A DNA stretch of 64,000 nucleotides from an uncultured Novosphingobium sp. (GCA_947085475.1 CAMTWP010000009.1:124-64123), one strand, 5' to 3'; shown: positions 22,054 through 53,558, counted from the stretch's first letter. Notes: generated by a model from the letters alone, not told the origin. Made by a program: numbers and translations.

Positions 22054-22127
22054 TGCCCCGTCGTCTAATGGTAAGACACCGGTTTCTGATACCGTTTATC
22101 GAGGTTCGAGTCCTTGCGGGGCATCCA
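22054..22127 (+). tRNA. tRNA-Gln (anticodon CTG), CCA encoded
   Basis: 7-bp acceptor stem (TGCCCCG/CGGGGCA), anticodon loop TTCTGAT, T-arm CGAGG-TTCGAGT-CCTTG, 3' TCCA. 74 nt. Confidence 0.9.
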
Positions 22128-22132
22128 CTTTC

Positions 22133-22173
22133 TGATGTATTCCATCAACCTATGCCCAAAAATTCCACTTGGG
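22133..22173. repeat. left-end terminal repeat plus one subterminal ATTCCAC motif
   Basis: GTATTCCAT at 22137-22145 and AATTCCACTT at 22161-22170. The segment 22154-22173 mirrors CAAGTGGAAT...TTTTTGGGCA at the right end. Confidence 0.7.
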
Positions 22174-22352
22174 TAATTTGCGGCATTTTCCCCCGTTATC
22201 AGATGGCTAGTCTATGCTGCTTGAGCGGGAAGTCCGGCATTTTTAATCTCTGAATATCCTGCCAGCATCCCGACATACAAACCAAGTGCCTGCTTCAAAG
22301 ACCAGGCCCATCCACTCGGAACGCTCTGGGCCACTGTCAAAAACGCATGCAC

Positions 22353-22384
22353 AAAAAAGCGGCCACCAGTTACCCGGTAGCCGC
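22353..22384 (-). terminator. Rho-independent terminator of the six-gene island operon
   Basis: On the minus strand: GCGGCTACC-N8-GGTGGCCGC followed by TTTTTTG, ~96 nt after the last stop codon. Confidence 0.75.
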
Positions 22385-22479
22385 CCAATGATGTTGCCAG
22401 TGATTTCCGGAAATGGAAAACGCGACTTTGAAAAGTCAGCTCAAGCGAGTGCTGCCCGTTCCGAAATCAGAATGGTCAA

Positions 22480-23232
22480 CTACTTATCAGTCAATGCTCT
22501 GGCGCCGTTGCGGTGAGCCAACTCGCCCCATTGTTCCCAATGGATGGAACGCTCGCACAACCAGGCAAAAAGCAGATCACGTGCGCGGGAATCCCTGAAG
22601 GCAATCGACCAAACGACGCGGCTCATAGGCATGCCGCCCGAATCCTTGGTGTATAAATCGAGGTGGGAAAACTTGATCAGGAACTGCTTGGCAACGCTTT
22701 CCCTGAAAACCCGATTTGCACGGGCTGGCCACTTTGCCGCTATCTTCTCAGCTTGGGCCAACAGTTCTTCGGAAACCGGAGATGTGTCGCCGACTTCAAG
22801 CCGGATCTCGCGCATGGACAATGATTCGTGATCTTTTTCCCGCGTGAGTTTAAGCATCTTTATCACTGAGTGGCCGAAAGTAGTAATCACCATATATTTG
22901 CGACCAGAACGAGCGCCGTCGTATGCCACAAGGCCAACTTCAACTAGCCAATTACCATAGAAGGTTTGAAAAAATTGGCTGCCATCAAACAGGCTATCAA
23001 CTTCCGCCCATCCAAGACAACCATCTTTATCAATGACCTTCAGGGCTCGAAAAAGTAACTCGCCTTCATCTTCAGAGCGCTTCCAAACTGACTTTGGCCA
23101 AAGTCCATCGAATAACGCATTGCGAACCGATGGCCATGCTTTGCCATTTTCATCGAGAACGCGGTCTCCGTCCCGCATAAGCCACCATCCCCACGGCATG
23201 CAGCGTTTTATCCGTTTGTCGTTATCCATCAT
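22480..23232 (-). CDS. hypothetical protein (island operon gene 6, 250 aa)
   Basis: Start ATGATG overlaps the upstream TGA (ATGATGA). W-rich and non-repetitive. No family recognised. Confidence 0.65.
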   Translation of the reverse strand: MMDNDKRIKRCMPWGWWLMRDGDRVLDENGKAWPSVRNALFDGLWPKSVWKRSEDEGELLFRALKVIDKDGCLGWAEVDSLFDGSQFFQTFYGNWLVEVGLVAYDGARSGRKYMVITTFGHSVIKMLKLTREKDHESLSMREIRLEVGDTSPVSEELLAQAEKIAAKWPARANRVFRESVAKQFLIKFSHLDLYTKDSGGMPMSRVVWSIAFRDSRARDLLFAWLCERSIHWEQWGELAHRNGARALTDK

Positions 23233-24059
23233 TTTCCGCTCTCCTTTTCCTGCGTATCTTCCGGCTGGAGTCCCATCGGCGGTAAAGTCGGGCCATTTCG
23301 GGCAGGCATCGGCAGGCAAAGTTCGATAGCCGAAAGTTGGGAAGCGAGGTTGAGCACCTCATTCACGACATAGTCGTCATCCCGGTAAACTGGTCGAACC
23401 CCGTCAACCGTCAGATTGCGGTATTTCTTTGGAATCAAATCGCCGATATGATTGCAGTCAAAGCCAAGCCACCAAGCGTCATCGTGAGGCTTATGATCCG
23501 TGGCGTTGGTGCCTGGAACGGTCTTTCTATAGGTAGGACGGAAGGTCACGTGACAAACGCGAACAGCCTCGCCTTTCACCCATACGACGCGGGTGGCGGG
23601 GACATCACAGGGCTTACTGTAAGTCAGCCCACCATGAATCTCGATACCCAGATCAGATGGAATGGCATCATGATCAAAGCCATAAAGCGGATGTGAGCGT
23701 GGCAATCCTACGAATCCCCGAAGGTAACCGTCCTCGGCATCGCGCATAATGATGCATTCGTAGCCTGTTTGGGGATCGAGCCAGGCAACCTTGTCAGCCT
23801 CTCCCCGCTTACGATGGGCCCGACGCAGATGGGGATCGACGAAATAGACCGTGGCCTGATGAAGCACGTGATTTTCCGTGCGATAGTCATAGCCCGTGAC
23901 ACGAGCGACGTTCTCTTGGGTGATCACTTCTTGAGGGGTGAGCGTGACGGGAACGAGAGCTGTGCCTGGTGTAACGGAAGCAGGCGTGATCAGTCTTTCG
24001 GTGGGGACGACGGCAACCGGCAGGTTCTTCACTGCAGGCTTCTTCTTTATCGGAGGCAT
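23229..24059 (-). CDS. hypothetical protein (island operon gene 5, 276 aa) with His/Asp-rich motifs
   Basis: Long ORF with GGA RBS. Contains motifs IHGGLTYS and WWLGFDCNHIGD. No family recognised. Confidence 0.65.
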   Translation of the reverse strand: MPPIKKKPAVKNLPVAVVPTERLITPASVTPGTALVPVTLTPQEVITQENVARVTGYDYRTENHVLHQATVYFVDPHLRRAHRKRGEADKVAWLDPQTGYECIIMRDAEDGYLRGFVGLPRSHPLYGFDHDAIPSDLGIEIHGGLTYSKPCDVPATRVVWVKGEAVRVCHVTFRPTYRKTVPGTNATDHKPHDDAWWLGFDCNHIGDLIPKKYRNLTVDGVRPVYRDDDYVVNEVLNLASQLSAIELCLPMPARNGPTLPPMGLQPEDTQEKESGK

Positions 24060-24242
24060 GGGCGTTTTCCTTTCGGGGATGGAAAATCGGTCAGGACTGA
24101 TCGAAAAGCTCTGGCCGAGACGAAATCAGGGACGAGGTTTCTGGGTGATGATCGTGGCTGCAGGCATTCAGCGCCTGATGACGATTGGGTCTGGGGATTT
24201 GCGGGATACGGTGTCGTCAAGCCCACCATTCACCCCACAACT

Positions 24243-24758
24243 TCACCGTTTCAGCAAAGCCTGAACAGGATCAGAAGGCACCCAAACCTTGGTCCGTTTG
24301 TTCTGGCATGAGGCGGCAAACGGTGTAACCGCGCCATTGACCATGAGCTTTTCGAAATCCCTCCACCATTGGTCGGGAAGGTTATCGGCTGAAAGGATGT
24401 CCCACAGAAGAGTGCGGGCGTAAGCCAGTTTGGCAACTTCAACCGCAAACTTGTCAGCTATTTCCCTATCACGGAAAATCGGCACGCATCGACGCAAGAG
24501 GTGTGCACCTTCAAACAGGATACGAATGCCGTCGTCGGCTGGGCTCACGTCCATAATGCGGATATCATGGGGATCAGTGAAGGAGGATGAAAGCAAGTCC
24601 TTCAAGGGACGACCTACAGCGGAGACAGCGACGTTCTCGGGTATGTCTCCTTCAACATAGAACCTGCCGTAACGTTTGCCCCATTTTCCTGGCAGCATTT
24701 TTAGATCGAGACGCGTTGCCTGGTCTGGGCCTTTTGGCCAAAGGATCTGGGCCTGCAT
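24243..24758 (-). CDS. hypothetical protein (island operon gene 4, 171 aa)
   Basis: Co-directional ORF, 33 nt after gene 3. No family recognised. Confidence 0.6.
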   Translation of the reverse strand: MQAQILWPKGPDQATRLDLKMLPGKWGKRYGRFYVEGDIPENVAVSAVGRPLKDLLSSSFTDPHDIRIMDVSPADDGIRILFEGAHLLRRCVPIFRDREIADKFAVEVAKLAYARTLLWDILSADNLPDQWWRDFEKLMVNGAVTPFAASCQNKRTKVWVPSDPVQALLKR

Positions 24759-24791
24759 TGTTCGCCTGATGTGGGAATATAGGAGAAATGG

Positions 24792-25088
24792 CTATTTTCC
24801 CGGTGGTAATGATCCCAGTGGGCGCAAGGGATCTATCAAAGACACCTTTGTGTATCCCACATCACAATCCAGCAATCTGTCAAACGCATCGTATCGTTCT
24901 GCGTCAGAAGAATGAGAGCCCAAACTCTGAACAGCGTCCAGGAGACACGCAGAGACCCGGAGCCATTTCGGCATTGGCTGTCCCGGGCCCAACGACCGCC
25001 AGACACGTGTGAAAGCAAGCCAATCGATGCCGGCATCAATACTTTCGCCGGGATGATCATGAACAATGGAAAAAGGATTGATCGTCAA
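24792..25088 (-). CDS. hypothetical protein (island operon gene 3, 98 aa, TTG start)
   Basis: Its TTG start overlaps the TGA of the preceding 31-codon ORF (TTGA). Confidence 0.5.
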   Translation of the reverse strand: MTINPFSIVHDHPGESIDAGIDWLAFTRVWRSLGPGQPMPKWLRVSACLLDAVQSLGSHSSDAERYDAFDRLLDCDVGYTKVSLIDPLRPLGSLPPGK

Positions 25089-25180
25089 CGGATAAGCCCC
25101 TCGGCAATCACTAACGGGTAGAGATGACGCACGACATCTCCCCCGACCGCATCAGAGCGGTCAAGCGCATGATCTTTCAT
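25085..25180 (-). CDS. possible 31-aa micro-ORF (island operon gene 2)
   Basis: ATG at 25180 preceded by AAGGAAA at 8-nt spacing. Encodes MKDHALDRSDAVGGDVVRHLYPLVIAEGLIR. Its stop overlaps the next start. Below the ORF-track size cutoff. Confidence 0.35.
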   Translation of the reverse strand: MKDHALDRSDAVGGDVVRHLYPLVIAEGLIR

Positions 25181-25234
25181 GATTTTGGTTTCCTTACGAG
25201 CGAGCCCTAAGCAGGGTCAGATCTCTGGTCAGGA

Positions 25235-25975
25235 TCACTTGGCAATGCGGTGTTCGATATCCACCGTGAAGTTTTCATGCCGTTGGAAATCATTATCCAC
25301 TTCAAACTTGCGGATGATTTCGGACAAAACATTCGGCACCAACGCCAATACCATGGGATCAGCCGGGAAAAAGCCCAACCTGATGCGCGCTTCAGAAGCG
25401 GCGTTGGCCCCGTATCGTCCAACCAGATGACCGTGAATGTTTTTCGGTTCACGGGTTATCACCGCATGGAATGCATTGATGATGTGCTGGTCATCCTTGA
25501 AACAGATCATCGCGGTGTAAAGCCGGGGTTGGCCTGCATAAAAGATCAAGGGCGAGTCACCATTATTGGCACCAGAAGACTTTGACTTCTTTTTGCCACG
25601 GGCCTGTTCACCGTCATTGTCTGCCAACAGATCATCAAGGGCGAGCGGATCAACATCAACGCCTAATGACAGACCATGCATCAGCACGCTTCGAAGGCAG
25701 TGTTTGTGCTCAAGGCAGGCTTCCATGGCTGTCCGACCTTCAAAAACCCTGAGCGGTGACAGCATCCACGACATGGGATCGACGTTCAAGCCGTCTCTGG
25801 CAAATCGGCCACCTGCTTCAGCAGCAGTCAAAGCCAACCGGACCAATCCGCGCTGTGTGACGAAAACCAATTTGTCATCGGGCTGATCTGGATCCAGCGG
25901 ATCGGGAAAAGACTTCAGTGGCGGCGGCAATTCAGCAGCGAACGGTCTTATTGCGGTAATGACATTCATAGCCAT
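25235..25975 (-). CDS. hypothetical protein (island operon gene 1, 246 aa) with DUF2384-like (Xre/MbcA/ParS antitoxin toxin-binding) segment
   Basis: AGGAGA RBS immediately before ATG 25975. The segment DPMSWMLSPLRVFEGRTAMEACLEHKHCLRSVLMHGLSLGV resembles the DUF2384 consensus. A Lys/Ser linker follows, then an unassigned C-terminal half. Confidence 0.65.
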   Translation of the reverse strand: MAMNVITAIRPFAAELPPPLKSFPDPLDPDQPDDKLVFVTQRGLVRLALTAAEAGGRFARDGLNVDPMSWMLSPLRVFEGRTAMEACLEHKHCLRSVLMHGLSLGVDVDPLALDDLLADNDGEQARGKKKSKSSGANNGDSPLIFYAGQPRLYTAMICFKDDQHIINAFHAVITREPKNIHGHLVGRYGANAASEARIRLGFFPADPMVLALVPNVLSEIIRKFEVDNDFQRHENFTVDIEHRIAK

Positions 25976-26039
25976 TCTCCTGTCGCCAGGTTTGACATTC
26001 CAAGTCAGCAGGTGGGGGCGACACCACGAGGCAAAAGAC

Positions 26040-26068
26040 CATATAGAGAACATAGAAAGATATGTCAA
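26040..26068 (-). promoter_or_regulatory. candidate sigma-70 promoter of island operon
   Basis: On the minus strand: TTGACA-N17-TATATG. The -35 element lies inside the inverted repeat at 26059-26084. Confidence 0.5.
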
Positions 26069-26084
26069 TAGTTCTCGACATATC
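26059..26084. promoter_or_regulatory. 8-bp perfect inverted repeat, candidate ArsR-family operator
   Basis: GATATGTC-N10-GACATATC sits in the 188-bp divergent region between the operon and the ArsR gene. Confidence 0.45.
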
Positions 26085-26163
26085 GACATAATAGCTCTAG
26101 GGGGGCGTCAAAATAATAGGGGAGGAGCTTTGATTGGGCGGGAAAGTTCCCTAGAATAAGGAT

Positions 26164-26457
26164 ATGGAAAAAATGAATGCCCTCGAAGTCATGAGCGCCC
26201 TTTGCCAATCAACGCGCATGAACGTGGTGAGCCTATTGGTTAAGGCTGGGGCTGATGGAATGGCAGCAGGAGCATTGGCAGATGCAACCGGCAGCTCTCA
26301 CAATACCATGTCCGCTCATCTCGCCATTCTGTTTCGGGCAGGATTGGTAGAGTCTGAAAAGCAGGGGCGGAGCGTTGTCTACAGAGCAAAGGTTGAGGCT
26401 GTTCGCAAGTTGGCGGCATTTCTTCAGGATGTTGCTGATGGACGATTGCCGGCGTGA
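26164..26457 (+). CDS. ArsR/SmtB family transcriptional regulator
   Basis: 97 aa. Winged-HTH pattern (ALCQSTRMNVVSLL...AGALADATGSSHNTMSAHLAILFRAGLVESEKQGRSVVY). Divergent from the island operon. Confidence 0.85.
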   Translation: MEKMNALEVMSALCQSTRMNVVSLLVKAGADGMAAGALADATGSSHNTMSAHLAILFRAGLVESEKQGRSVVYRAKVEAVRKLAAFLQDVADGRLPA

Positions 26458-26541
26458 ACAACCTATAAACCCACTTCAACCAGTTTGGACACTAGCCCAT
26501 TCAATAAATAGAATTCGGGAAAATTTACTTTCAATAATTTT

Positions 26542-27465
26542 TCAGATTTTCCGCTCCATGCAAGTTTCAGATGATATGATTTCTCCATCCCTTTTATCGA
26601 AAACATAGATCATTGCATCTGCCCAATTCGTATAATTTTCTATCGACAACTTAAGATCCCCGTATTTCCAATATTTGGAAACAACTGTCGTAAATCCCGG
26701 ATAGGTGAGTATCTCCTTTTGTTCATGTATCTTTCTTGTATATATCGGACCAACATGTCCAGTTTTTTTTAAGGTCGGGAGAGATGGAGCGATGGAAAAT
26801 TTCACCGCAATGCCAATATTGTTTCCAATCTTTAAGGATTTTGCCCTTTCTGAATCCATCACAATTTCAGAATTAAATGTGCAGTATGCTGCAAAATTTT
26901 CAGTGTATTGATATGCCCCAGTATAATGCCAAACCATCGGATTATAACCGTACTTATAGGAATTTTCGGTCAACTTTTCTAAATAGAAATGTTTTAGAGT
27001 TGCAATGACACTCATTTTATGTGTGTCCGCGTTGTATCTTAATTCTAAGTCAAAAGAATTTGCGTAATTGTAGGGAATTATAAGGAATGTATTCCCATAT
27101 TTTTCTGAAAAGACTTTGTAGTCATTATTCGATTTCAATCGCCCCTGATATTCATCAGTCGTTTCGAATTCATTTTTCTCTAATGTTTTAGCTAGATTGT
27201 ACAAAGCAGAATACAGGACACTCATATCATGTCCTTTACTCAAAAGATCAGAAGATTTAACTTTGCCATCAAATTTAAATGGAATAAATTTATCACTCTT
27301 CGTTACAGGTTCTTCCACATTACTAAATTTTCTAAATAAATCTGCAAAATCTTGACTCGATATCGCTTGCTCAATTCCAGAATTTGAGGAATCTTCGCCG
27401 AGCGCAACGTCAGAGCTAAACCCAAGAAAGCTCAGTGCCAACAGAAGGCTTACCGGCTTTTGCAT
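26542..27465 (-). CDS. secreted hypothetical protein encoded by strongly AT-rich DNA
   Basis: Signal peptide MQKPVSLLLALSFLGFSSDVALG. N/K/Y/F-rich composition. Sampled 60-nt lines are ~30-38% G+C, against ~60% or more in the flanks. Confidence 0.7.
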   Translation of the reverse strand: MQKPVSLLLALSFLGFSSDVALGEDSSNSGIEQAISSQDFADLFRKFSNVEEPVTKSDKFIPFKFDGKVKSSDLLSKGHDMSVLYSALYNLAKTLEKNEFETTDEYQGRLKSNNDYKVFSEKYGNTFLIIPYNYANSFDLELRYNADTHKMSVIATLKHFYLEKLTENSYKYGYNPMVWHYTGAYQYTENFAAYCTFNSEIVMDSERAKSLKIGNNIGIAVKFSIAPSLPTLKKTGHVGPIYTRKIHEQKEILTYPGFTTVVSKYWKYGDLKLSIENYTNWADAMIYVFDKRDGEIISSETCMERKI

Positions 27466-27639
27466 TTTGAACCCTCTGCCTGCTATAAATGCCTTCCGAC
27501 CTAACGACGACAGTTTCCTTATGCAACGGCTGAAAACAGGTGAACTCCATACGCTCAAAGATCAGATCCTTCATGACCGACATCGAAAACGGCTGGATTT
27601 TGGCACGATATGGTCTGACTTTTCCGTTTTGACACCGGT

Positions 27640-28218
27640 TCAGGTTGCTTGAACACCATGCTCCATGGCTCGTCCAATAATCCGAGCTTTCACATCGTCA
27701 GTGGCTGGAAAGATCATGTAGCCGCTATCGAGATCACCCAGCATCATTGATTGATCTCTTGAACCAAGTCGCCAATGCATAGCCACTAGCAGACAGAGCA
27801 TGGCATCCAGACGGTCTTGATCTGCCTTGGTAGGAGGATCTCGGTCAATTTCTGACGCACACCACGCCGCAGCATCTTCGACATTGAACGATTTGAAATG
27901 TGAGGCGGCGGCTGTGGCAACTTTTTGCCAGTCCTCCAGCCGGAATGTTTGTTTGCGACTAGGGTTATAGCGTGGACCAGAGAGGCGGTGGAAAAACTGG
28001 GGATCAAGTGAGGGCAGCGCCAGTGCCGGGAACACCTCTATCACGTGAATGCCGGTTGTGGCAGTTCTGGCTGCTTCTGGGTTCTCGATTGCATTCAGCC
28101 TGCCAAGGAAGCTCCAGATGGGTGAGGCATCGCAAAACATTCCGACTTTGCCACGGTTAGCCACCCCTCGTGATGGCATCGTTTTCGGTGTTCGATATGG
28201 TCTCCCGTTTAGGAGCAT
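27640..28218 (-). pseudogene. DUF429 (RNase H-like nuclease) C-terminal fragment, frameshifted relative to upstream ORF
   Basis: VIEVFPALALPSL and DRLDAMLCLLVA match DUF429 core motifs. The N-terminal catalytic part is missing from this frame. It overlaps 28157-29068 by 62 nt. Confidence 0.55.
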
Positions 28219-29068
28219 CGATCATCAAAATGCCTGCGGTTTGAAGCCGGTCGACCTCTGAAGTTTCCATAGCCCAAGGGAAGCGTAGGCTCTGTTGTGC
28301 TTCTTGCGCGACTTGACTGACCAGCTGCTTTTCGAGGGCTTCGGTGGAAACCGCGAGCCCTTTGCGCATGATGTCGAACAGGATTTTAAAAAGCTCAGCT
28401 CGTGTTTCGACACTGGCCTGTTTTAAGAAGTCGTTGTGAGCGAAAAGCTCATTGTCTTTGGCAAGTTCCAAAAGGCCGGGAAACCGAACTTCGATGAGTT
28501 TCAGGTCTTCCAAATTCGGATTGGTGTAACGCCAGCCCCTGCGAAGATCGCTCCAAACCCGGTGTGCGAGCACTTTTGTTACTGCGTTCTCGGCCTGTTC
28601 GAACGCAATGATGCCGCGAGCGTTGGGGTTGCCCATCCATTCGACGAGGCGTTCTTTGTTTTCTCGATTGAAGCCTAAAGCCTGACGAACAGCGTCACCA
28701 AATTTTTGATGTTCGAGGCCACGACCACCAGCATCTTGCACGGCTTTCAACAGTCCGGCCCTGAGTAAAGTTACAAAGATAAAATCGTTAAAGTGACCAG
28801 ACTGTAGCGCAGCATCTTGGCGGTTATCGGTGAATCCGAGAAGCTTACGCTGAAACTCCCCCAAGGAACCGTCGCTGTGCATTGCCCGAAGGAGGGCTGC
28901 CGTGATCAAAGTGGTGGCAGAACTTCGGCCTTCAGCCGAAAGGCTGGCGAGTTTGGTTCGTTCACGAGCTTGTGATGTCGGGATATTTTTGCAGGCTGCG
29001 CAAAAACGATGTGGCCCCACAAAGAACCAAGCTTCGATCCCTTCGCCATTCACTTGACCGTCACCCAT
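28157..29068 (-). pseudogene. fragment of a helicase-associated (DUF1998/DrmB-like) protein, N-terminally truncated
   Basis: FCAACK...LLGFTDNRQDAALQSGHFNDF resembles the motif found after the Zn-ribbon region of DUF1998-type helicase partners. No helicase core lies upstream. The tail (ILMIDAP) may continue into DUF429 after a frameshift. Confidence 0.5.
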
Positions 29069-29497
29069 ATAAAATCGAATGGCGTTCCCAGAGGCCAGGA
29101 GACCCCAGGCATTTCACGTATTTCCCGGACTGCGTGATGATGCGCCGAAATGGGCGTGTCGTGCTCATCGAGGTTAAGAGAACCGAGAACGACCTTAGAG
29201 ACCCAGAATACCGGGAAAAGCTGGCTCAGATACGAGTGGCTGAATGGGACGACAAAGATCAATGTCTTGCTTGAACAGCTCAAGCCGACCGGAACACGGC
29301 CACTGGCATACCAATATGAGGACGCAGACAGGGCGGCTCGAAAATGCGCGACCGTGACAGAGCTAATCTATCACCACGAACTCACGGCACCGGAAATTTC
29401 GAAAATGCTTCGCGAGCATAAGATTCCAGAGGTCATGCCTAAAGGATGGTGTCGGAAAAAACTGATAGAACTTGGGCTTTTACCAAAGCAGCCTTGA
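28972..29497 (+). pseudogene. TnsA-like PD-(D/E)xK endonuclease remnant (N-terminally truncated, frameshifted near 29215-29240)
   Basis: HFTYFPDCVMMRRNGRVVLIEVK fits the Y-PDF...EVK core of TnsA N-terminal nucleases. The second frame carries the continuation (YEWLNGTTKINVLLEQL) and a helical C-terminal region. Confidence 0.45.
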
Positions 29498-29527
29498 TGC
29501 AATCAAAGACTAAAAATCAGTCCACAG

Positions 29528-29555
29528 CCCCCTCCATCGCGAGGGGGTTTCTTTT
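29528..29555 (+). terminator. Rho-independent terminator
   Basis: CCCCCTC-CATCGC-GAGGGGG followed by TTTCTTTT. Confidence 0.7.
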
Positions 29556-29580
29556 GAGCAGGGCTAGAGGGCTAGCGAAT

Positions 29581-29708
29581 GTTGGATAGAGCAAGTGGAA
29601 TAAAATGGCGTTTTTGGGCAGAATGAAGTGGAATAGGAAAAACTGCCTAAGTGGAATTATATCGTTATATCATGGGCTTGGCTGGATAAGTTTTGTTGGA
29701 ATACATCA
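29581..29708. repeat. right-end array of six (G/T)TGGA(A)TA motifs ending in the terminal inverted repeat
   Basis: TTGGATAGA at 29582, GTGGAATAA at 29595, GTGGAATAG at 29628, GTGGAATTA at 29651, CTGGATAAG at 29682, TTGGAATAC at 29696. All are in the same orientation. Confidence 0.75.
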
Positions 29709-29789
29709 TTTCCTTTCAATTTCTGACAAATTGCGGCCAGTTGCATGGCCCCCTTGCGCTTTTGCGCCTTTGGCCCGACTTATGGGGGC

Positions 29790-30671
29790 ATGACAGAAGA
29801 AGAAAAGCAGCACGATCTGACCAAGCGCAAGTTCTACAAGGCCGAGCAGGAAGCCGGTTTTGCAGACAGCCAGCCCAAAACCACCCCGCAGCAACAGGAT
29901 CCGGCCTATCGGCTGGCGTTTCGTGATACAGACTTCCTCCTGCGCGAAGAATTGCGGCCGGTGCGGTTCCAGTTGGAACTGCTCAAACCCGATATGCTGC
30001 TGGATGAAGCGGGGATCGGTTCAACGCTGGTGATTTACGGATCAGCGCGGATTCCATCGCCAGATATGGCTGAGGCCGCGCTGGCAACGGCGACGACGCC
30101 TGAGAAAAAAGCGGTTGTCGAACGGCTGGCGGCCAAGGCCCAATATTACGAAGAAGCGCGCAAACTGGCGCATAAGGCCAGCAGTTGCGGCATCGTTGAG
30201 GATGGCAAGCGCCAATTCGTGATCTGTTCAGGCGGCGGGCCTTCGATCATGGAAGCGGCCAATCGCGGTGCAGAAGAAGCGGGCGCGGAATCGATCGGGC
30301 TGAACATCGTTTTGCCGCACGAGCAGGCCCCCAACAGCTTTGTCACGCCGCATTTGTCGTTCCAGTTCCACTACTTCGCACTGCGCAAGATGCATTTCCT
30401 GCTGCGCGCCCGCGCCGTGGCGGTGTTTCCGGGTGGGTTCGGCACATTCGATGAATTCTTCGAACTGCTGACGCTGATCCAGACTGGCAAGATGAAGCCG
30501 ATCCCGATCATGCTGTTCGGCAAGGATTACTGGAACCGCGTCATCAACTTTCAGGCCTTGGCCGAAGAAGGTGTGATCAATTTTGAGGATCTGGAACTGT
30601 TCACGATGGTCGAGACCGGCGATGAGGCGTGGGCGCACATCGTGAAGTTTTACGATCTCGATTGCGGGTAA
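29790..30671 (+). CDS. LOG family (TIGR00730) Rossmann-fold nucleotide-binding protein
   Basis: GGGPSIMEAANRGA and PGGFGTFDEFFE motifs. ATG at 29790 (MTEEEKQ). Confidence 0.85.
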   Translation: MTEEEKQHDLTKRKFYKAEQEAGFADSQPKTTPQQQDPAYRLAFRDTDFLLREELRPVRFQLELLKPDMLLDEAGIGSTLVIYGSARIPSPDMAEAALATATTPEKKAVVERLAAKAQYYEEARKLAHKASSCGIVEDGKRQFVICSGGGPSIMEAANRGAEEAGAESIGLNIVLPHEQAPNSFVTPHLSFQFHYFALRKMHFLLRARAVAVFPGGFGTFDEFFELLTLIQTGKMKPIPIMLFGKDYWNRVINFQALAEEGVINFEDLELFTMVETGDEAWAHIVKFYDLDCG

Positions 30672-32993: not shown

Positions 32994-33078
32994 GGAACAG
33001 TTTTTCCCTATCGTCGGCGCCATCTTGGGCGGCTTGCTGCATTGCTATGCTTGCATGTGTAGCTAATGTCACCTCAAC

Positions 33079-34350
33079 ATGACCTTACCGACTCCTGAAA
33101 AATCGTCCACGGCTCTGCCTCCTATCGCGCAAGTACCTGCGATGTGGACGTTTATTGGCCTTGTCGGTGGGATGATTGGTGGGTTGGCAGTCGCGTTTTT
33201 GACGCCGGATGCCTTGCCAATCGTGCAAACCTGGGTGCAGCCCGTGGGCGACATGTGGTTGCGTGCGCTTCAGGCCACGATTGTTCCGCTGGTGGTCGCG
33301 CTGTTGTTTACAGGCGTCACGCAAACTGTGGCGATGGCCAGTGCGGGGGCAATGGCGCGGCGCAGTTTGGGCATGTTTCTGGGCTTTCTGACTTTCAGCG
33401 CGGGTGTGGCGATTGTCGTCACACCTTTGCTGCTGTCGGTTCTGCCCATCTCGGCAGAAGCAGGCGCGGCTTTGCGCAGCAGCTTGGGTGCAGCGCAGCC
33501 CGGCCCCGTGCCCGGTGTTGCCGAATTCCTGCGGTCTATCGTACCGACCAACGTGATTGATGCTGCTGCCAATGATCGGATGCTGCCGCTGATCCTGTTC
33601 ACATCGGTGTTCGCGCTGGCGGTGTGCAAGCTTGCAGGGCCGCAGCGTGAGGTGATGACGACGTTTTTTGCAGCCCTTGCCTCGGCCATGTTGGTGGTGA
33701 TTGGCTGGGTACTGGCGCTTGCCCCCATTGGAGTTTTTGCCCTCAGCATGGCCGTAGCTGCCACTAGCGGCACGGCGGCCATCGGCGCTTTGGCGCACTA
33801 TGTCGGGATTATATTGCTGACAGGATCGGTGGTGGTGATCGCAGGCTATGTGTTTGCCGTAGCCATTGCCCGACAGCCTTTGGGGCGGTTTGCCCGCGCG
33901 ATGCTGCCGGTGCAAACGATCGCGCTGTCCACCCAGTCATCGCTCGCTTCGCTGCCTGCGATGCTGGGGGCATGCCGGAACCTTGGCGTGCGCGAAACCA
34001 CGTCGGAATTTGTGATGCCTCTGGCCGTGGCGCTGTTCCGCGCGACCAGTCCGGCGATGAACCTTGCCGTCGCGATTTACGTGGCGCATCTTTACGATGT
34101 CACGCTGACGCCGATGGTGCTGGTTTCGGCGTGGATCGTGGCGATTTTAGTGTCGTTAAGCTCGGTCAGTCTGCCCGGATCAATCAGCTTTGTGGCATCT
34201 GTTGGCCCGATTGCGATTGCGATGAATGCGCCGGTTGCGCCATTGGCACTGCTGGTGGCGGTGGAAGTCCTGCCTGATCTGATCCGTACCATTGGCAACG
34301 TGACCATGGATGTGGCGGTGACTGCGGCAGTTGATCGCAAGGTTCCATAG
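33079..34350 (+). CDS. dicarboxylate/amino acid:cation symporter (DAACS family)
   Basis: 423 aa, polytopic. QSSLASLPA and other GltP-family-like segments. Confidence 0.8.
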   Translation: MTLPTPEKSSTALPPIAQVPAMWTFIGLVGGMIGGLAVAFLTPDALPIVQTWVQPVGDMWLRALQATIVPLVVALLFTGVTQTVAMASAGAMARRSLGMFLGFLTFSAGVAIVVTPLLLSVLPISAEAGAALRSSLGAAQPGPVPGVAEFLRSIVPTNVIDAAANDRMLPLILFTSVFALAVCKLAGPQREVMTTFFAALASAMLVVIGWVLALAPIGVFALSMAVAATSGTAAIGALAHYVGIILLTGSVVVIAGYVFAVAIARQPLGRFARAMLPVQTIALSTQSSLASLPAMLGACRNLGVRETTSEFVMPLAVALFRATSPAMNLAVAIYVAHLYDVTLTPMVLVSAWIVAILVSLSSVSLPGSISFVASVGPIAIAMNAPVAPLALLVAVEVLPDLIRTIGNVTMDVAVTAAVDRKVP

Positions 34351-34471
34351 CTTCTCAAGCGGCTACCTGTAACCGACTGAAATAGAAGGTCTGCGCCGCG
34401 AAGTGGCGGCAACCGATGCGCGTCTCGCGCGTTGAGTGTGAAACGCAATTTCACGAGGACGTTGACTGCCC

Positions 34472-35071
34472 ATGGCTATTATCCTGCCCCCTCTGCCTTA
34501 TGCTGAAGACGCGCTTGCACCAGTCATTTCGGCCATCACCTTGCAAACCCACCACGGCAAACATCACAAAGCCTATGTCGACAAGACCAACGCCGCTATT
34601 GAAGATTCAGACCATGCCAATGCCAGCCTTGAGCAGATCATTGCCGCCGCGCAGGCTAATGGCGACACGAGCCTGTTCAACAATGCAGCGCAAAGCTGGA
34701 ACCACGCCTTTTACTGGAACAGCCTATCGCCCGAAACGTCAGCGCCAACGGGCAATCTGGCCAGTGCCATTGAGGCATCGTTTGGTTCACTTGAGGCACT
34801 GAAGGCCGAACTTCTGGCCCAAGGCACAGCCCATTTTGCATCAGGCTGGGTGTGGCTGCTGGCGCGCGGCGGCAGCCTGGGCGTTGAACAGACACACGAT
34901 GCCGCAACATTTGCCACAGGCGATGCCAAGCCCGTGCTGGTGATCGACTTGTGGGAGCATGCCTATTATCTCGATCACAAGAATGTGCGCCCGGAATACC
35001 TTAAGGGCGTCATCGAGAAGCATCTGAACTGGGAATTTGCTGCTGAAAACTTCAGTCGCGATGGCACGTAG
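34472..35071 (+). CDS. sodB: Fe/Mn superoxide dismutase
   Basis: LPPLPYAEDALAP, HHGKHH and DLWEHAYYLD motifs. Confidence 0.95.
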   Translation: MAIILPPLPYAEDALAPVISAITLQTHHGKHHKAYVDKTNAAIEDSDHANASLEQIIAAAQANGDTSLFNNAAQSWNHAFYWNSLSPETSAPTGNLASAIEASFGSLEALKAELLAQGTAHFASGWVWLLARGGSLGVEQTHDAATFATGDAKPVLVIDLWEHAYYLDHKNVRPEYLKGVIEKHLNWEFAAENFSRDGT

Positions 35072-52733: not shown

Positions 52734-53558
52734 ATGCCAGCCATGACCCATGCAACCCAGAACCTCCACGATCGCGTAACCATCACGGTTGAGGATCACG
52801 TTGCGCATGTGTTGCTGGACCGGGCAGACAAGATGAACGCGCTCGACGATGCGATGTTCGATGCAATTATTGCGGCCGGGCATCACTTGCACAATGCCAA
52901 GGGTGTGCGCTGTGTCGTTCTGTCGGGCGCGGGGCGTGGGTTCTGCGCCGGGCTTGATCTTGCAACCATGGCCGATCCAGACCGTTGGGGTGAGAGCGGC
53001 AATTTAATTGATCGCACGCACGGCAAGGCCAATCGTCCGCAGCAATGTGCCATGGTCTGGCGCAACTTGCCGATGCCGGTGATCGCGGTGGTCCACGGTG
53101 TGTGTTTCGGCGGTGGCTTGCAAGTCGCCAGCGGTGCCGACATTCGCTTTATCGCGCCCGATTCGCGACTTTCGATCATGGAAGTGAAGTGGGGCCTAAT
53201 CCCGGACATGGCGGGCTATGTCTTGTGGCGCGGCAATGTGCGCGATGATGTGCTGCGGGAATTGACATACACCCACCGGGAGTTCAGCGGCGAAGAAGCG
53301 GTGGAACTGGGTTTTGCGACCCACGTCAGCACAGATCCGCTGGCAGACGCGATGGCCATGGCCAAAGACATCGCGGGCAAAAGCCCAACGGCGGTGCGCG
53401 GCGCAAAGATGCTTTCCAACCGCACGCCCGATATGGACGTGGAAGATGTGCTCATGGCCGAATCCAAGGCCCAACACGAATTGATGTATTCCAAAAACCA
53501 GATCGAAGCCGTGCGCTCGGGCATGGAAAAGCGTGCGCCGGAATTCGTTGATCCATGA
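52734..53558 (+). CDS. enoyl-CoA hydratase/isomerase (crotonase) family protein
   Basis: Oxyanion-hole segments (GRGFCAGLDL, VHGVCFGGGLQVA). Confidence 0.88.
   Translation: MPAMTHATQNLHDRVTITVEDHVAHVLLDRADKMNALDDAMFDAIIAAGHHLHNAKGVRCVVLSGAGRGFCAGLDLATMADPDRWGESGNLIDRTHGKANRPQQCAMVWRNLPMPVIAVVHGVCFGGGLQVASGADIRFIAPDSRLSIMEVKWGLIPDMAGYVLWRGNVRDDVLRELTYTHREFSGEEAVELGFATHVSTDPLADAMAMAKDIAGKSPTAVRGAKMLSNRTPDMDVEDVLMAESKAQHELMYSKNQIEAVRSGMEKRAPEFVDP

What the first reader, a model, noticed from the sequence alone, without database searches (positions are those of the whole stretch)
22133..29708. 7.6-kb inverted-repeat-bounded element 5 nt downstream of tRNA-Gln, with no intact mobility gene
TGATGTATTCCA (22133-22144) and TGGAATACATCA (29697-29708) are exact reverse complements, 15/16 when extended to 16 bp. 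TTTC abuts both outer edges (22129-22132 and 29709-29712), which could be a 4-bp target duplication. A second shared block, CAAGTGGAAT...TTTTTGGGCA, occurs inverted at 22154-22173 and direct at 29591-29620. Everything between is AT-richer than the ~60+% GC flanks. The intact neighbours are tRNA-Gln and a LOG-family gene. I found no integrase, DDE transposase or duplicated tRNA 3' end, and the only mobility-related trace is a decayed TnsA-like nuclease. The ends look like those of multi-site transposons (Tn7/Mu/IS21 style), but the element appears immobilised or mobilised in trans. It carries unassigned cargo.
Basis: seen in the sequence. Interest (0 to 1): 0.75.

Follow-up and report, generated by a model that had tools for sequence, protein, structure and literature searches.

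The report
Gutted Tn7-like transposon beside tRNA-Gln
The 7.6-kb block is a real, precisely bounded insertion: a Tn7-like transposon of a little-known Sphingomonadaceae lineage that kept both ends but lost its transposase genes by internal deletion, so it is an ordinary decayed mobile element with one odd detail, a 4-bp instead of 5-bp target duplication.

Summary
TGATGTATTCCA/TGGAATACATCA bound a 7,576-bp AT-richer block (22133-29708) that starts 5 nt after tRNA-Gln. Two Novosphingobium contigs with about 95% identical flanks have the empty site (…CCAC TTTC CTTTCA…). Removing the block plus one TTTC restores that site without a gap, so this is a discrete insertion with a 4-bp duplication.

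The "frameshifted TnsA-like gene" is a deletion junction. A TnsA core (aa ~102-178) is fused at ~29231-29241 to the last 86 codons of the fourth gene of a tnsA-tnsB-tniB(tnsC)-X operon. Intact relatives in Sphingomonas-type genomes carry that operon, followed by a terminator hairpin and a multi-site right end. Their binding sites sit at the same offsets from the terminus (~8, ~76, ~108) as in the window (6, 74, 107).

The element is therefore a tnsB/tnsC-less derivative of a Tn7-like transposon. Its cargo is unknown genes, an ArsR pair shared with a relative, and fragments of defence genes. It cannot move by itself. I could not tell whether the deletion came before the insertion (mobilisation in trans) or after it (decay in place). 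I found no second copy. Interest is modest. The unusual points are the 4-bp duplication and the poorly described family.

The parts
22054..22127 (+). tRNA-Gln(CTG), intact. It is the left neighbour of the insertion and is not duplicated.
   Evidence: ARAGORN; Rfam tRNA 56.8 bits.
22129..22132 (.). Left copy of the 4-bp target-site duplication TTTC.
   Evidence: The empty site has a single TTTC at this position.
22133..22184 (+). Left end. Terminal inverted repeat TGATGTATTCCATCAA (22133-22148), terminal bipartite site ATTCCA-N8-TGCCCA (22136-22161), and a second site with ATTCCACTT (22162-22170).
   Evidence: (I15, I11).
22357..22386 (-). Terminator-like hairpin (13 pairs plus a T run) closing the minus-strand cargo genes just inside the left end.
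22480..23319 (-). Cargo ORF, 279 aa (TTG start uncertain). No family match.
23229..24059 (-). Cargo ORF, 276 aa. Matches phage family phrog_2164 (unknown function, E 4e-22).
24243..24758 (-). Cargo ORF, 171 aa. No family match.
25235..26089 (-). Cargo ORF (284 aa as listed, 244 aa as called elsewhere). It is divergent from the ArsR gene. It is homologous (26% over 201 aa, E 5e-18) to the gene in the same position beside an ArsR-like gene in a full-length relative (L068).
26164..26457 (+). ArsR/SmtB-family regulator, 97 aa. Its homologue is paired the same way in L068.
26542..27558 (-). 338-aa ORF in a 35% GC segment. No family match. Compositionally distinct from the rest of the element.
27640..28218 (-). 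5'-truncated DUF429 / PDC-S44 candidate-defence gene. It matches profile positions 100-270 of 277, with homology over about 27640-28161.
28196..29062 (-). Internal fragment (about aa 542-848 of ~1704) of a giant DEAD/DEAH, DruE-like helicase. It is 49% identical to the helicase of Sphingomonas sp. MM-1 plasmid pISP0.
29020..29241 (+). tnsA remnant: only the catalytic core (PD…EVK). It corresponds to aa ~102-178 of ~290-aa TnsA-like proteins, and the N-terminal ~100 codons are missing.
29231..29497 (+). Last 86 codons plus the stop of the family's fourth transposition-operon gene (347 aa in L056), fused out of frame to the tnsA remnant. The deletion junction is at about 29231-29241.
   Evidence: (47% over 86 aa, running to the C-terminus, E 3e-25).
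29526..29549 (+). Terminator hairpin after the operon remnant. Hairpins are visible at the same position in L060 and L068; they were read by eye and not scanned.
29579..29708 (-). Right end. Four sites with ATTCCA at offsets 6, 51, 74 and 107 from the terminus, and terminal inverted repeat 29693-29708. It is collinear with the right ends of L056, L059, L060 and L068.
29709..29712 (.). Right copy of the 4-bp target-site duplication TTTC.
29745..30671 (+). LOG-family gene, the right neighbour. It probably starts at 29790. It is host DNA and lies next to tRNA-Gln in all empty relatives.

Best explanation
Window 22133-29708 is a 7,576-bp, internally deleted derivative of a Tn7-like transposon. The transposon belongs to a Sphingomonadaceae lineage whose intact members encode TnsA, a divergent TnsB, a TniB/TnsC-type ATPase and a fourth protein of 347-622 aa.

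How it arrived: it entered a Novosphingobium chromosome by TnsB-type cut-and-paste transposition into a pyrimidine-rich site (CTTTC CTTTC) 5 nt downstream of tRNA-Gln. It duplicated TTTC on insertion.

What it keeps: both ends are intact. The left end has a terminal site plus one clear subterminal site. The right end has four sites, and each site is a bipartite ~23-bp motif, ATTCCA-N8-T(G/A)(C/T)CCA. A deletion of about 5.6 kb, measured on the closest relative, fused the tnsA core to the last 86 codons of the fourth gene. That deletion removed tnsB and tnsC. Further deletions truncated tnsA at its 5' side and two cargo defence genes.

Shown: the insertion boundaries, the target duplication, the empty site, the deletion junction, the end homology and the absence of tnsB/tnsC.

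Inferred: that the repeats are TnsB-binding sites, and that the element is now immobile unless a cognate TnsABC is supplied in trans. I slightly favour arrival as an autonomous element followed by decay in place. The order of deletion and insertion is not determined.
For: - Empty site and gapless reconstruction with exactly 4 bp removed. Flanks are 93.5-95.3% identical to the empty contigs. More distant relatives are also empty.
- Terminal inverted repeat and subterminal 9-mers are confined to the two ends.
- The TnsA core is 43% identical to P0122, and the family hits Pfam Tn7_TnsA-like_N.
- Contexts of five TnsA subfamilies (the loci of P0122, P0127, P0157, P0154 and P0140) all show tnsA, a 752-783-aa gene, TniB/AAA_22 and a fourth gene.
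- The 752/766-aa proteins hit solved TnsB structures (E 1e-19 and 7e-9).
- Window ORF 29141-29494 aligns to the C-terminal 86 aa of the L056 fourth gene.
- Precise right termini of relatives are defined by 99.9%-identical copies with different flanks.
- Site offsets and layout (gene stop, hairpin, ~130-bp multi-site end) are conserved between the window and relatives.
- The ORF/ArsR divergent pair is shared with L068.
- No tnsB/tniB homologue occurs in the 64-kb window.
Against: - The duplication is 4 bp, whereas Tn7-like elements characteristically make 5 bp (PMC11014353).
- The termini read TGA…TCA, not the TGT…ACA of Tn7-like elements and of the relatives L059, L060, L068 and L082. L056 reads TGC.
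- The TnsA remnant is only ~75 aa, with 43% identity to the nearest relative. End similarity outside the half-sites is modest (15/26 for the terminal site against L056).
- No left end of any relative could be located. The family's own duplication length and left-end structure are therefore unknown.
- No second copy of these exact ends was found in three large collections. Those searches required exact matches.
Confidence: 0.8

Rival explanations
1. Non-autonomous mini-element. The deletion of tnsB/tnsC happened before this insertion. The already gutted element was then moved to the tRNA-Gln site by TnsABC supplied in trans from an autonomous relative in the same cell, as with mobile insertion cassettes or laboratory mini-Tn7.
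For: Both ends and the duplication are perfect while the interior is heavily rearranged. Related autonomous elements are evidently active, with 99.9%-identical copies and at least 5 different right flanks.
Against: - No second copy of these ends was found in the window, 185,579 species genomes, JGI metagenomes or IMG/VR. All hits look like chance matches in coding DNA.
- All public contigs carrying element proteins come from the same locus.
- No tns genes occur in the 64 kb available.
Confidence: 0.3
2. Integrase-type genomic island at a tRNA gene. The TTTC repeats are the crossover core of attL/attR, the inverted repeats are core-type recombinase sites, and the ATTCCACTT copies are arm-type sites. 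The integrase gene has been lost.
For: - The island is adjacent to a tRNA gene.
- The reconstructed joined ends would form a 12-4-12 palindrome.
- Repeated subterminal motifs are also typical of attP arms (general knowledge of lambda-type sites).
Against: - No tRNA 3' segment is duplicated and the insertion lies outside the tRNA.
- Four bp of identity is shorter than the 6-8-bp overlap of tyrosine recombinases.
- No integrase or remnant is detected.
- The right end is collinear with ends of TnsA/TnsB/TniB elements that insert at many unrelated sites.
Confidence: 0.03
3. Cassette derived from an IS21-type (or other IS) element: multi-repeat ends and a 4-bp duplication made by an IstA-like transposase. 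The TnsA fragment would then be unrelated debris.
For: A 4-bp duplication and multiple terminal repeats are classic for IS21 (own knowledge). The duplication is not the 5 bp of Tn7.
Against: - No istA/istB trace is present.
- The remnant operon end, the hairpin and the site offsets match the right ends of the TnsA/TnsB/TniB family.
- The accessory pair is shared with that family.
Confidence: 0.04
4. Chance inverted repeat inside an ordinary variable region.
For: A third exact copy of the 12-mer occurs by chance at 53482.
Against: The empty site has boundaries exactly at the repeat, the composition steps at the same points, and the clustered 9-mers lie only at the ends.
Confidence: 0.01

Closest known systems
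Tn7 and Tn7-like transposons (heteromeric TnsA+TnsB transposase, TnsC/TniB ATPase, target selector; e.g. Tn7, Tn6022, Tn6677)
   Same: - Relatives encode TnsA-like, TnsB-like and TniB-type proteins in one operon.
- The ends carry several ~20-bp repeated sites: four close together at one end and fewer at the other.
- The termini are TG…CA.
- Cargo includes defence-gene material and a regulator.
- The insertion lies in an intergenic spot just downstream of a conserved gene, leaving that gene intact.
   Different: - The window copy has no tnsB or tnsC, and only fragments of tnsA and the fourth gene.
- The duplication is 4 bp, not 5 bp (PMC11014353).
- The terminal triplet is TGA, not TGT.
- In this lineage the tns operon reads outwards, and its last gene abuts the multi-site end. 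In Tn7, tnsA starts next to the right end (own knowledge).
- The fourth protein shows no TniQ/TnsD signature.
- TnsB is too divergent for the Pfam rve model.
- The insertion is 5 nt from the tRNA, against 30-33 nt for tRNA-homing CASTs (PMC10293859). The end next to the tRNA is the one with few sites.
Mobile insertion cassettes / mini-transposons (transposon ends around passenger genes, no transposase, moved in trans)
   Same: Intact inverted-repeat ends, a target duplication, passenger genes and no transposase.
   Different: Only one copy is known, and no partner element has been identified. The remnant gene fusion shows it is a recent deletion derivative rather than a streamlined cassette.
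IS21 family
   Same: A 4-bp duplication, TG…CA termini and multiple subterminal repeats.
   Different: No IstA/IstB is present. The gene remnants and the end architecture belong to a TnsA/TnsB/TniB lineage.
tRNA-associated integrative islands
   Same: It sits immediately beside a tRNA gene, is AT-richer than the host and carries accessory or defence-type genes.
   Different: No integrase is present and no tRNA 3' end is duplicated. The element has inverted rather than direct terminal repeats.

Membership tests
Tn7-like transposon | TnsB-type DDE transposase gene | tested here: not met
   No homologue occurs in the element or the 64-kb window. It is present in all five sets of relatives, with PDB TnsB hits at E 1e-19 and 7e-9. 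The window copy is therefore a derivative, not a functional member.
Tn7-like transposon | TnsA-like endonuclease gene | tested here: inconclusive
   Only a ~75-aa catalytic-core remnant remains (29020-29241). Pfam Tn7_TnsA-like_N gives E 7e-4, below the cut-off. It is 43% identical to P0122, and the family hits the Pfam model. It is a pseudogene.
Tn7-like transposon | TnsC/TniB AAA+ regulator gene | tested here: not met
   Absent from the window. Present in relatives as PF05621 TniB, E 8e-16.
Tn7-like transposon | TniQ/TnsD-type target selector | tested here: inconclusive
   The window keeps only the last 86 codons of the family's fourth gene. That gene has no Pfam, NCBIfam or PDB sequence match in relatives.
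Tn7-like transposon | Asymmetric ends with multiple transposase-binding repeats | tested here: met
   The right end has four sites and the left end has two clear sites. Offsets are shared with relatives. Binding itself was not tested.
Tn7-like transposon | Terminal 5'-TGT…ACA-3' | tested here: not met
   The window has TGA…TCA. Relatives L059, L060, L068 and L082 have TGT, and L056 has TGC. The TG/CA dinucleotide is kept.
Tn7-like transposon | 5-bp target-site duplication | tested here: not met
   It is 4 bp (TTTC). Reconstruction is gapless only when 4 bp are removed. A 5-bp duplication followed by a 1-bp loss in the C/T run cannot be excluded.
Non-autonomous element mobilised in trans | Intact ends without a transposase | tested here: met
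Non-autonomous element mobilised in trans | Several copies at different sites, or a cognate autonomous element in the same genome | tested here: not met
   No other copy was found in the window or in three collections by exact pattern. The rest of the host genome was not available.
tRNA-targeting integrase island | Integrase gene and duplicated tRNA 3' segment as attL/attR | tested here: not met
IS21 family | istA/istB genes | tested here: not met

The most novel reading that the evidence does not exclude
The element and its relatives may define an undescribed Tn7-like lineage of Sphingomonadaceae. Its features would be:
- a TnsB so divergent that standard models miss it;
- a fourth protein unrelated in sequence to TniQ/TnsD;
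- a tns operon that reads out towards the multi-site end;
- a preference for (C)TTTC pyrimidine-rich targets instead of a fixed attachment gene;
- a transpososome that joins the target with a 4-bp rather than a 5-bp stagger.

The window copy would then be a natural 'mini' version that shows the minimal cis requirements.
Probability: 0.25. Interest if true: 0.55.

Novelty: new member of a known kind. Interest (0 to 1): 0.35.

Why it matters
For genome annotation, this explains a 7.6-kb strain-specific island next to tRNA-Gln as a dead or dependent transposon. Three ORFs should be read as pseudogene fragments, not genes: 27640-28218, 28157-29068 and 28972-29497.

For transposon biology, the element gives a naturally minimised pair of ends for a barely characterised TnsA/TnsB/TniB lineage. 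Members of that lineage are demonstrably active in metagenomes. It also raises one concrete, testable oddity, the 4-bp duplication. If general for the lineage, that would mean a different target-joining geometry from all studied Tn7-like systems. Otherwise this is an ordinary example of mobile-element decay.

Tried and rejected
**Searches for other copies**
- Exact-pattern scans for other copies of the ends (TGATGTATTCCA-N10-40-ATTCCACTT) gave 9 hits in genome contigs, 7 in viral contigs and 32 in metagenome contigs. All are single matches in unrelated, mostly low-GC coding DNA without extra repeats, close to the ~8 chance matches I estimated by hand for the genome collection.
- Megablast and blastn of the whole element against PLSDB plasmids found only the helicase fragment.
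- tblastn of a relative's TnsB against plasmids found nothing.

**Homologue searches**
- A word-indexed homologue search with the concatenated 'TnsA-like' ORFs found nothing. The exhaustive representative search was needed.
- phmmer of the remnant against the PDB gave nothing meaningful.

**Left ends of relatives**
- I tried to locate the left ends, and hence the duplication length, of relatives L056, L059, L060/61/63, L068 and L082. The methods were inverted-repeat search, mismatch search with the right terminus, half-site regular expressions, local alignment and searching for the flank motif.
- None was convincing.
- A left-end-like stretch at L060 ~6748 has plausible half-sites but no matching duplication.

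**Look-ups of exact proteins**
- The exact 279-aa and 276-aa products are not on record.
- The 171-aa product returned only the same locus.

**Weak or abandoned lines**
- A position matrix built from the four right-end sites recovers the left terminal site as the best non-training hit. Apart from that hit it mostly scores AT-rich DNA, so it is weak support only.
- I first thought that TnsA homology continues past the 'frameshift'. I dropped this once the downstream ORF matched the C-terminus of a different gene.
- Literature searches found no description of Tn7-like elements in Sphingomonadaceae.

Full report
**1. The observation**

The sequence features are all present.
- TGATGTATTCCA lies at 22133-22144, and its reverse complement lies at 29697-29708. 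The repeat is 15/16 over 16 nt.
- TTTC abuts both outer edges.
- tRNA-Gln(CTG) ends at 22127, 5 nt before the block.
- A 9-mer, ATTCCACTT, occurs once just inside the left boundary and three times just inside the right boundary, always pointing inwards. It occurs nowhere else in 64 kb (4 found, 0.38 expected).
- GC drops from ~0.61 to ~0.51 exactly between the boundaries, with a 35% GC pocket at 26.3-27.6 kb.
- A third exact copy of the 12-mer sits inside a coding region at 53482 and has none of the other features. This shows the 12-mer alone would not be proof.

**2. It is a discrete insertion**

The LOG protein to the right identifies the host as Novosphingobium.
- Two metagenomic contigs (L019, L020) have flanks 93.5-95.3% identical to the window. 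They carry Ppx–tRNA-Gln–LOG with nothing in between and read …GGGGCATCCAC TTTC CTTTCACC….
- Removing 22133-29708 and one TTTC from the window gives a gapless 233/236 match. Removing 3 or 5 bp instead needs a gap.
- More distant relatives (84% and 80% identical flanks) are also empty.
- Contigs 100% identical to the window carry the element at the same place.

**3. Gene content**

No ORF in the block matches an integrase, DDE transposase or AAA+ regulator. The left two-thirds holds apparently intact genes:
- ORFs of 279, 276 (phrog_2164), 171 and 98 aa, all on the minus strand and closed by a strong terminator at 22357-22386;
- a divergent pair made of a 244/284-aa ORF and an ArsR-family regulator;
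- a 338-aa ORF in the low-GC pocket.

The right third is debris:
- a DUF429/PDC-S44 gene lacking its first ~100 codons;
- a 303-codon internal piece (about residues 542-848) of a ~1,700-aa DruE-like DEAD/DEAH helicase, 49% identical to one on Sphingomonas plasmid pISP0, where it sits with a second helicase-related gene, an N-6 DNA methylase and an HNH endonuclease;
- the 'TnsA-like' ORFs.

**4. The TnsA-like trace is a deletion junction**

A word-indexed search found nothing. An exhaustive HMMER search of ORF 28906-29271 found ~290-aa proteins that hit Pfam Tn7_TnsA-like_N. The closest is P0122, 43% identical over residues 102-175.

A profile of these proteins recovered about 40 clusters, several from Sphingomonas. 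Their genomic contexts are uniform. The order is:
- a ~310-aa gene;
- a divergent ~350-417-aa gene;
- tnsA;
- a 752-783-aa gene;
- a TniB/AAA_22 gene;
- a fourth gene of 347-622 aa.

The 752/766-aa proteins have no Pfam rve hit. They do match solved TnsB structures over the catalytic region (E 1e-19 and 7e-9). TniB is clear (E 8e-16).

The second window ORF (29141-29494) is not TnsA at all. Its residues 31-116 align at 47% identity to the last 86 residues of the fourth gene of L056, right up to the stop (E 3e-25). The apparent frameshift at ~29231-29241 is therefore the scar of a deletion. On the L056 map the deletion spans ~5.6 kb. It removed the tnsA 3' half, tnsB, tnsC and most of the fourth gene. 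No tnsB or tniB homologue exists elsewhere in the window.

**5. The ends belong to this family**

Right termini of relatives can be placed to the base because 99.9%-identical copies have different flanks:
- P0157-type elements end …GGTGAAACCTGACA| with at least five different right flanks;
- P0154-type elements end …AGTGAAACGTGACA| with two different flanks.

L059, L082 and L056 show the same architecture.

In L060 and L068 the last operon gene is followed by a hairpin. In all the relatives it is followed by a ~130-bp end. The sites in that end are bipartite, (T)TC(A/C)AC-N6-8-(C/T)GC(T/C)CA, at about 8, 76 and 108 nt from the terminus.

The window has the same layout:
- stop at 29497;
- hairpin at 29526-29549;
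- sites ATTCCA-N8-T(G/A)(C/T)CCA at 6, 51, 74 and 107 nt.

Against the closest relative, L056, even the second half-sites coincide in offset: TGCCCA at 89-94 in the window and 90-95 in L056, and at 121-126 in both. The terminal 26 nt are 15/26 identical.

The ORF/ArsR divergent pair of the window is also homologous to a pair in the L068 element. More than the right end is therefore shared.

**6. Mechanism**

Shown:
- the insertion boundaries, the duplication and the empty site;
- the loss of tnsB/tnsC by deletion;
- the homology of the ends.

Inferred from what is established for Tn7-like elements:
- the repeats are TnsB-binding sites;
- TnsA+TnsB excised the ancestor and joined its CA-3' ends to staggered positions in the target;
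- TnsC and a selector chose the target.

Without tnsB and tnsC the present copy cannot transpose. With both ends intact it could in principle be moved by a cognate machinery in trans.

Two histories fit:
- arrival as an autonomous element and then decay in place, which I favour slightly given four separate truncation junctions and no second copy;
- deletion first, then mobilisation in trans.

Nothing available discriminates between them.

Target choice:
- The insertion is 5 nt from the tRNA, with the few-site end next to it. This is unlike tRNA-homing Tn7-like CASTs, which insert 30-33 nt downstream (PMC10293859).
- Relatives insert at many unrelated sites.
- Right flanks of family members often begin with a pyrimidine-rich (C)TTTC: window TTTCC, L059 CTTTCTG, L082 CTTTCCG, L069 TTTCTAT, L061 CTTCCTC.

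A sequence or structure preference therefore seems more likely than recognition of tRNA-Gln.

**7. Comparison with known systems**

The element works like, and descends from, a Tn7-like transposon. As a member it fails several tests:
- it has no tnsB or tnsC;
- its termini are TGA…TCA rather than TGT…ACA;
- its duplication is 4 bp, whereas 5 bp is characteristic (PMC11014353).

A 5-bp duplication followed by loss of one C in the C/T run cannot be excluded.

The lineage itself differs from Tn7. Its operon reads outwards to the multi-site end, and its fourth protein has no recognisable TniQ/TnsD signature. I found no paper describing Tn7-like elements in Sphingomonadaceae. That is a limited search, and NCBI already labels one member as a TnsA-domain protein.

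The other candidate explanations are disfavoured:
- IS21 shares the 4-bp duplication and multi-repeat ends, but not the genes or the end architecture.
- An integrase island is excluded by the lack of an integrase and of a tRNA duplication.
- Chance is excluded by the empty site.

**8. Verdict**

It is a gutted Tn7-like transposon, which is an ordinary kind of object. Two points are worth a specialist's glance: the 4-bp duplication, and the poorly characterised but evidently active family it belongs to.

Noticed in passing
window 53482-53493: A third exact copy of TGATGTATTCCA lies inside a coding region (…ELMYSKNQIEAV…). It has no subterminal repeats or composition change. It is apparently a coincidence despite its low prior probability.
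   Followed up: partly
window 23916 (inside ORF 23229-24059); loci L076-L081: Logan unitigs from five different sequencing runs are 100% identical to the window but all stop at exactly 23916. A sixth stops at 23976. The exact 276-aa and 279-aa products are not on record anywhere. This suggests an assembly-graph branch, meaning a variant or alternative left part of the element in those samples.
   Followed up: partly
right flanks: window 29709-; L059 18007-; L082 17561-; L069 10578-; L061 16150-; L068 15774-: Insertions of this transposon family often have a pyrimidine-rich (C)TTTC motif immediately outside the right terminus. Flanks read TTTCC, CTTTCTG, CTTTCCG, TTTCTAT, CTTCCTC and ACTCCTC. 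This hints at a target-sequence preference.
   Followed up: partly
L060 6690-6751, L061 6690-6751, L063 14-75: Copies of the P0157-type element share a 58-62-bp stretch containing a hairpin (TAGCGGAC…GTCCGCTA) at the left edge of the conserved block. Unrelated DNA lies further left. L061 and L063 share this left side but have different right flanks. This may be a repeated target, part of the element, or flank exchange between copies.
   Followed up: partly
window 26300-27600: A 35% GC pocket inside the element holds a 338-aa ORF with a hydrophobic N-terminal segment and no family match. It probably has a separate origin from the rest of the cargo.
   Followed up: no
window 27640-29068: Fragments of a PDC-S44 (DUF429) candidate defence gene and of a DruE-like giant helicase lie side by side. 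The intact helicase homologue on Sphingomonas sp. MM-1 pISP0 sits next to a second helicase-related gene, an N-6 DNA methylase and an HNH endonuclease.
   Followed up: partly
window 29745-29790: The LOG gene is 293 aa in nearly all relatives, so its start is probably the ATG at 29790, not 29745. The transposon's right end now lies about 80 bp upstream of it, replacing the tRNA-Gln-proximal DNA that precedes it in empty genomes.
   Followed up: no
window 33000-34500: AT skew of about -0.3 is sustained over ~1.5 kb, far from the values in the rest of the window.
   Followed up: no
L082 16401-17560: In the P0140-type relative, a SocA_Panacea-domain gene and a 138-aa ORF lie between the fourth transposition gene and the right end. 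Cargo can therefore sit on that side too.
   Followed up: no
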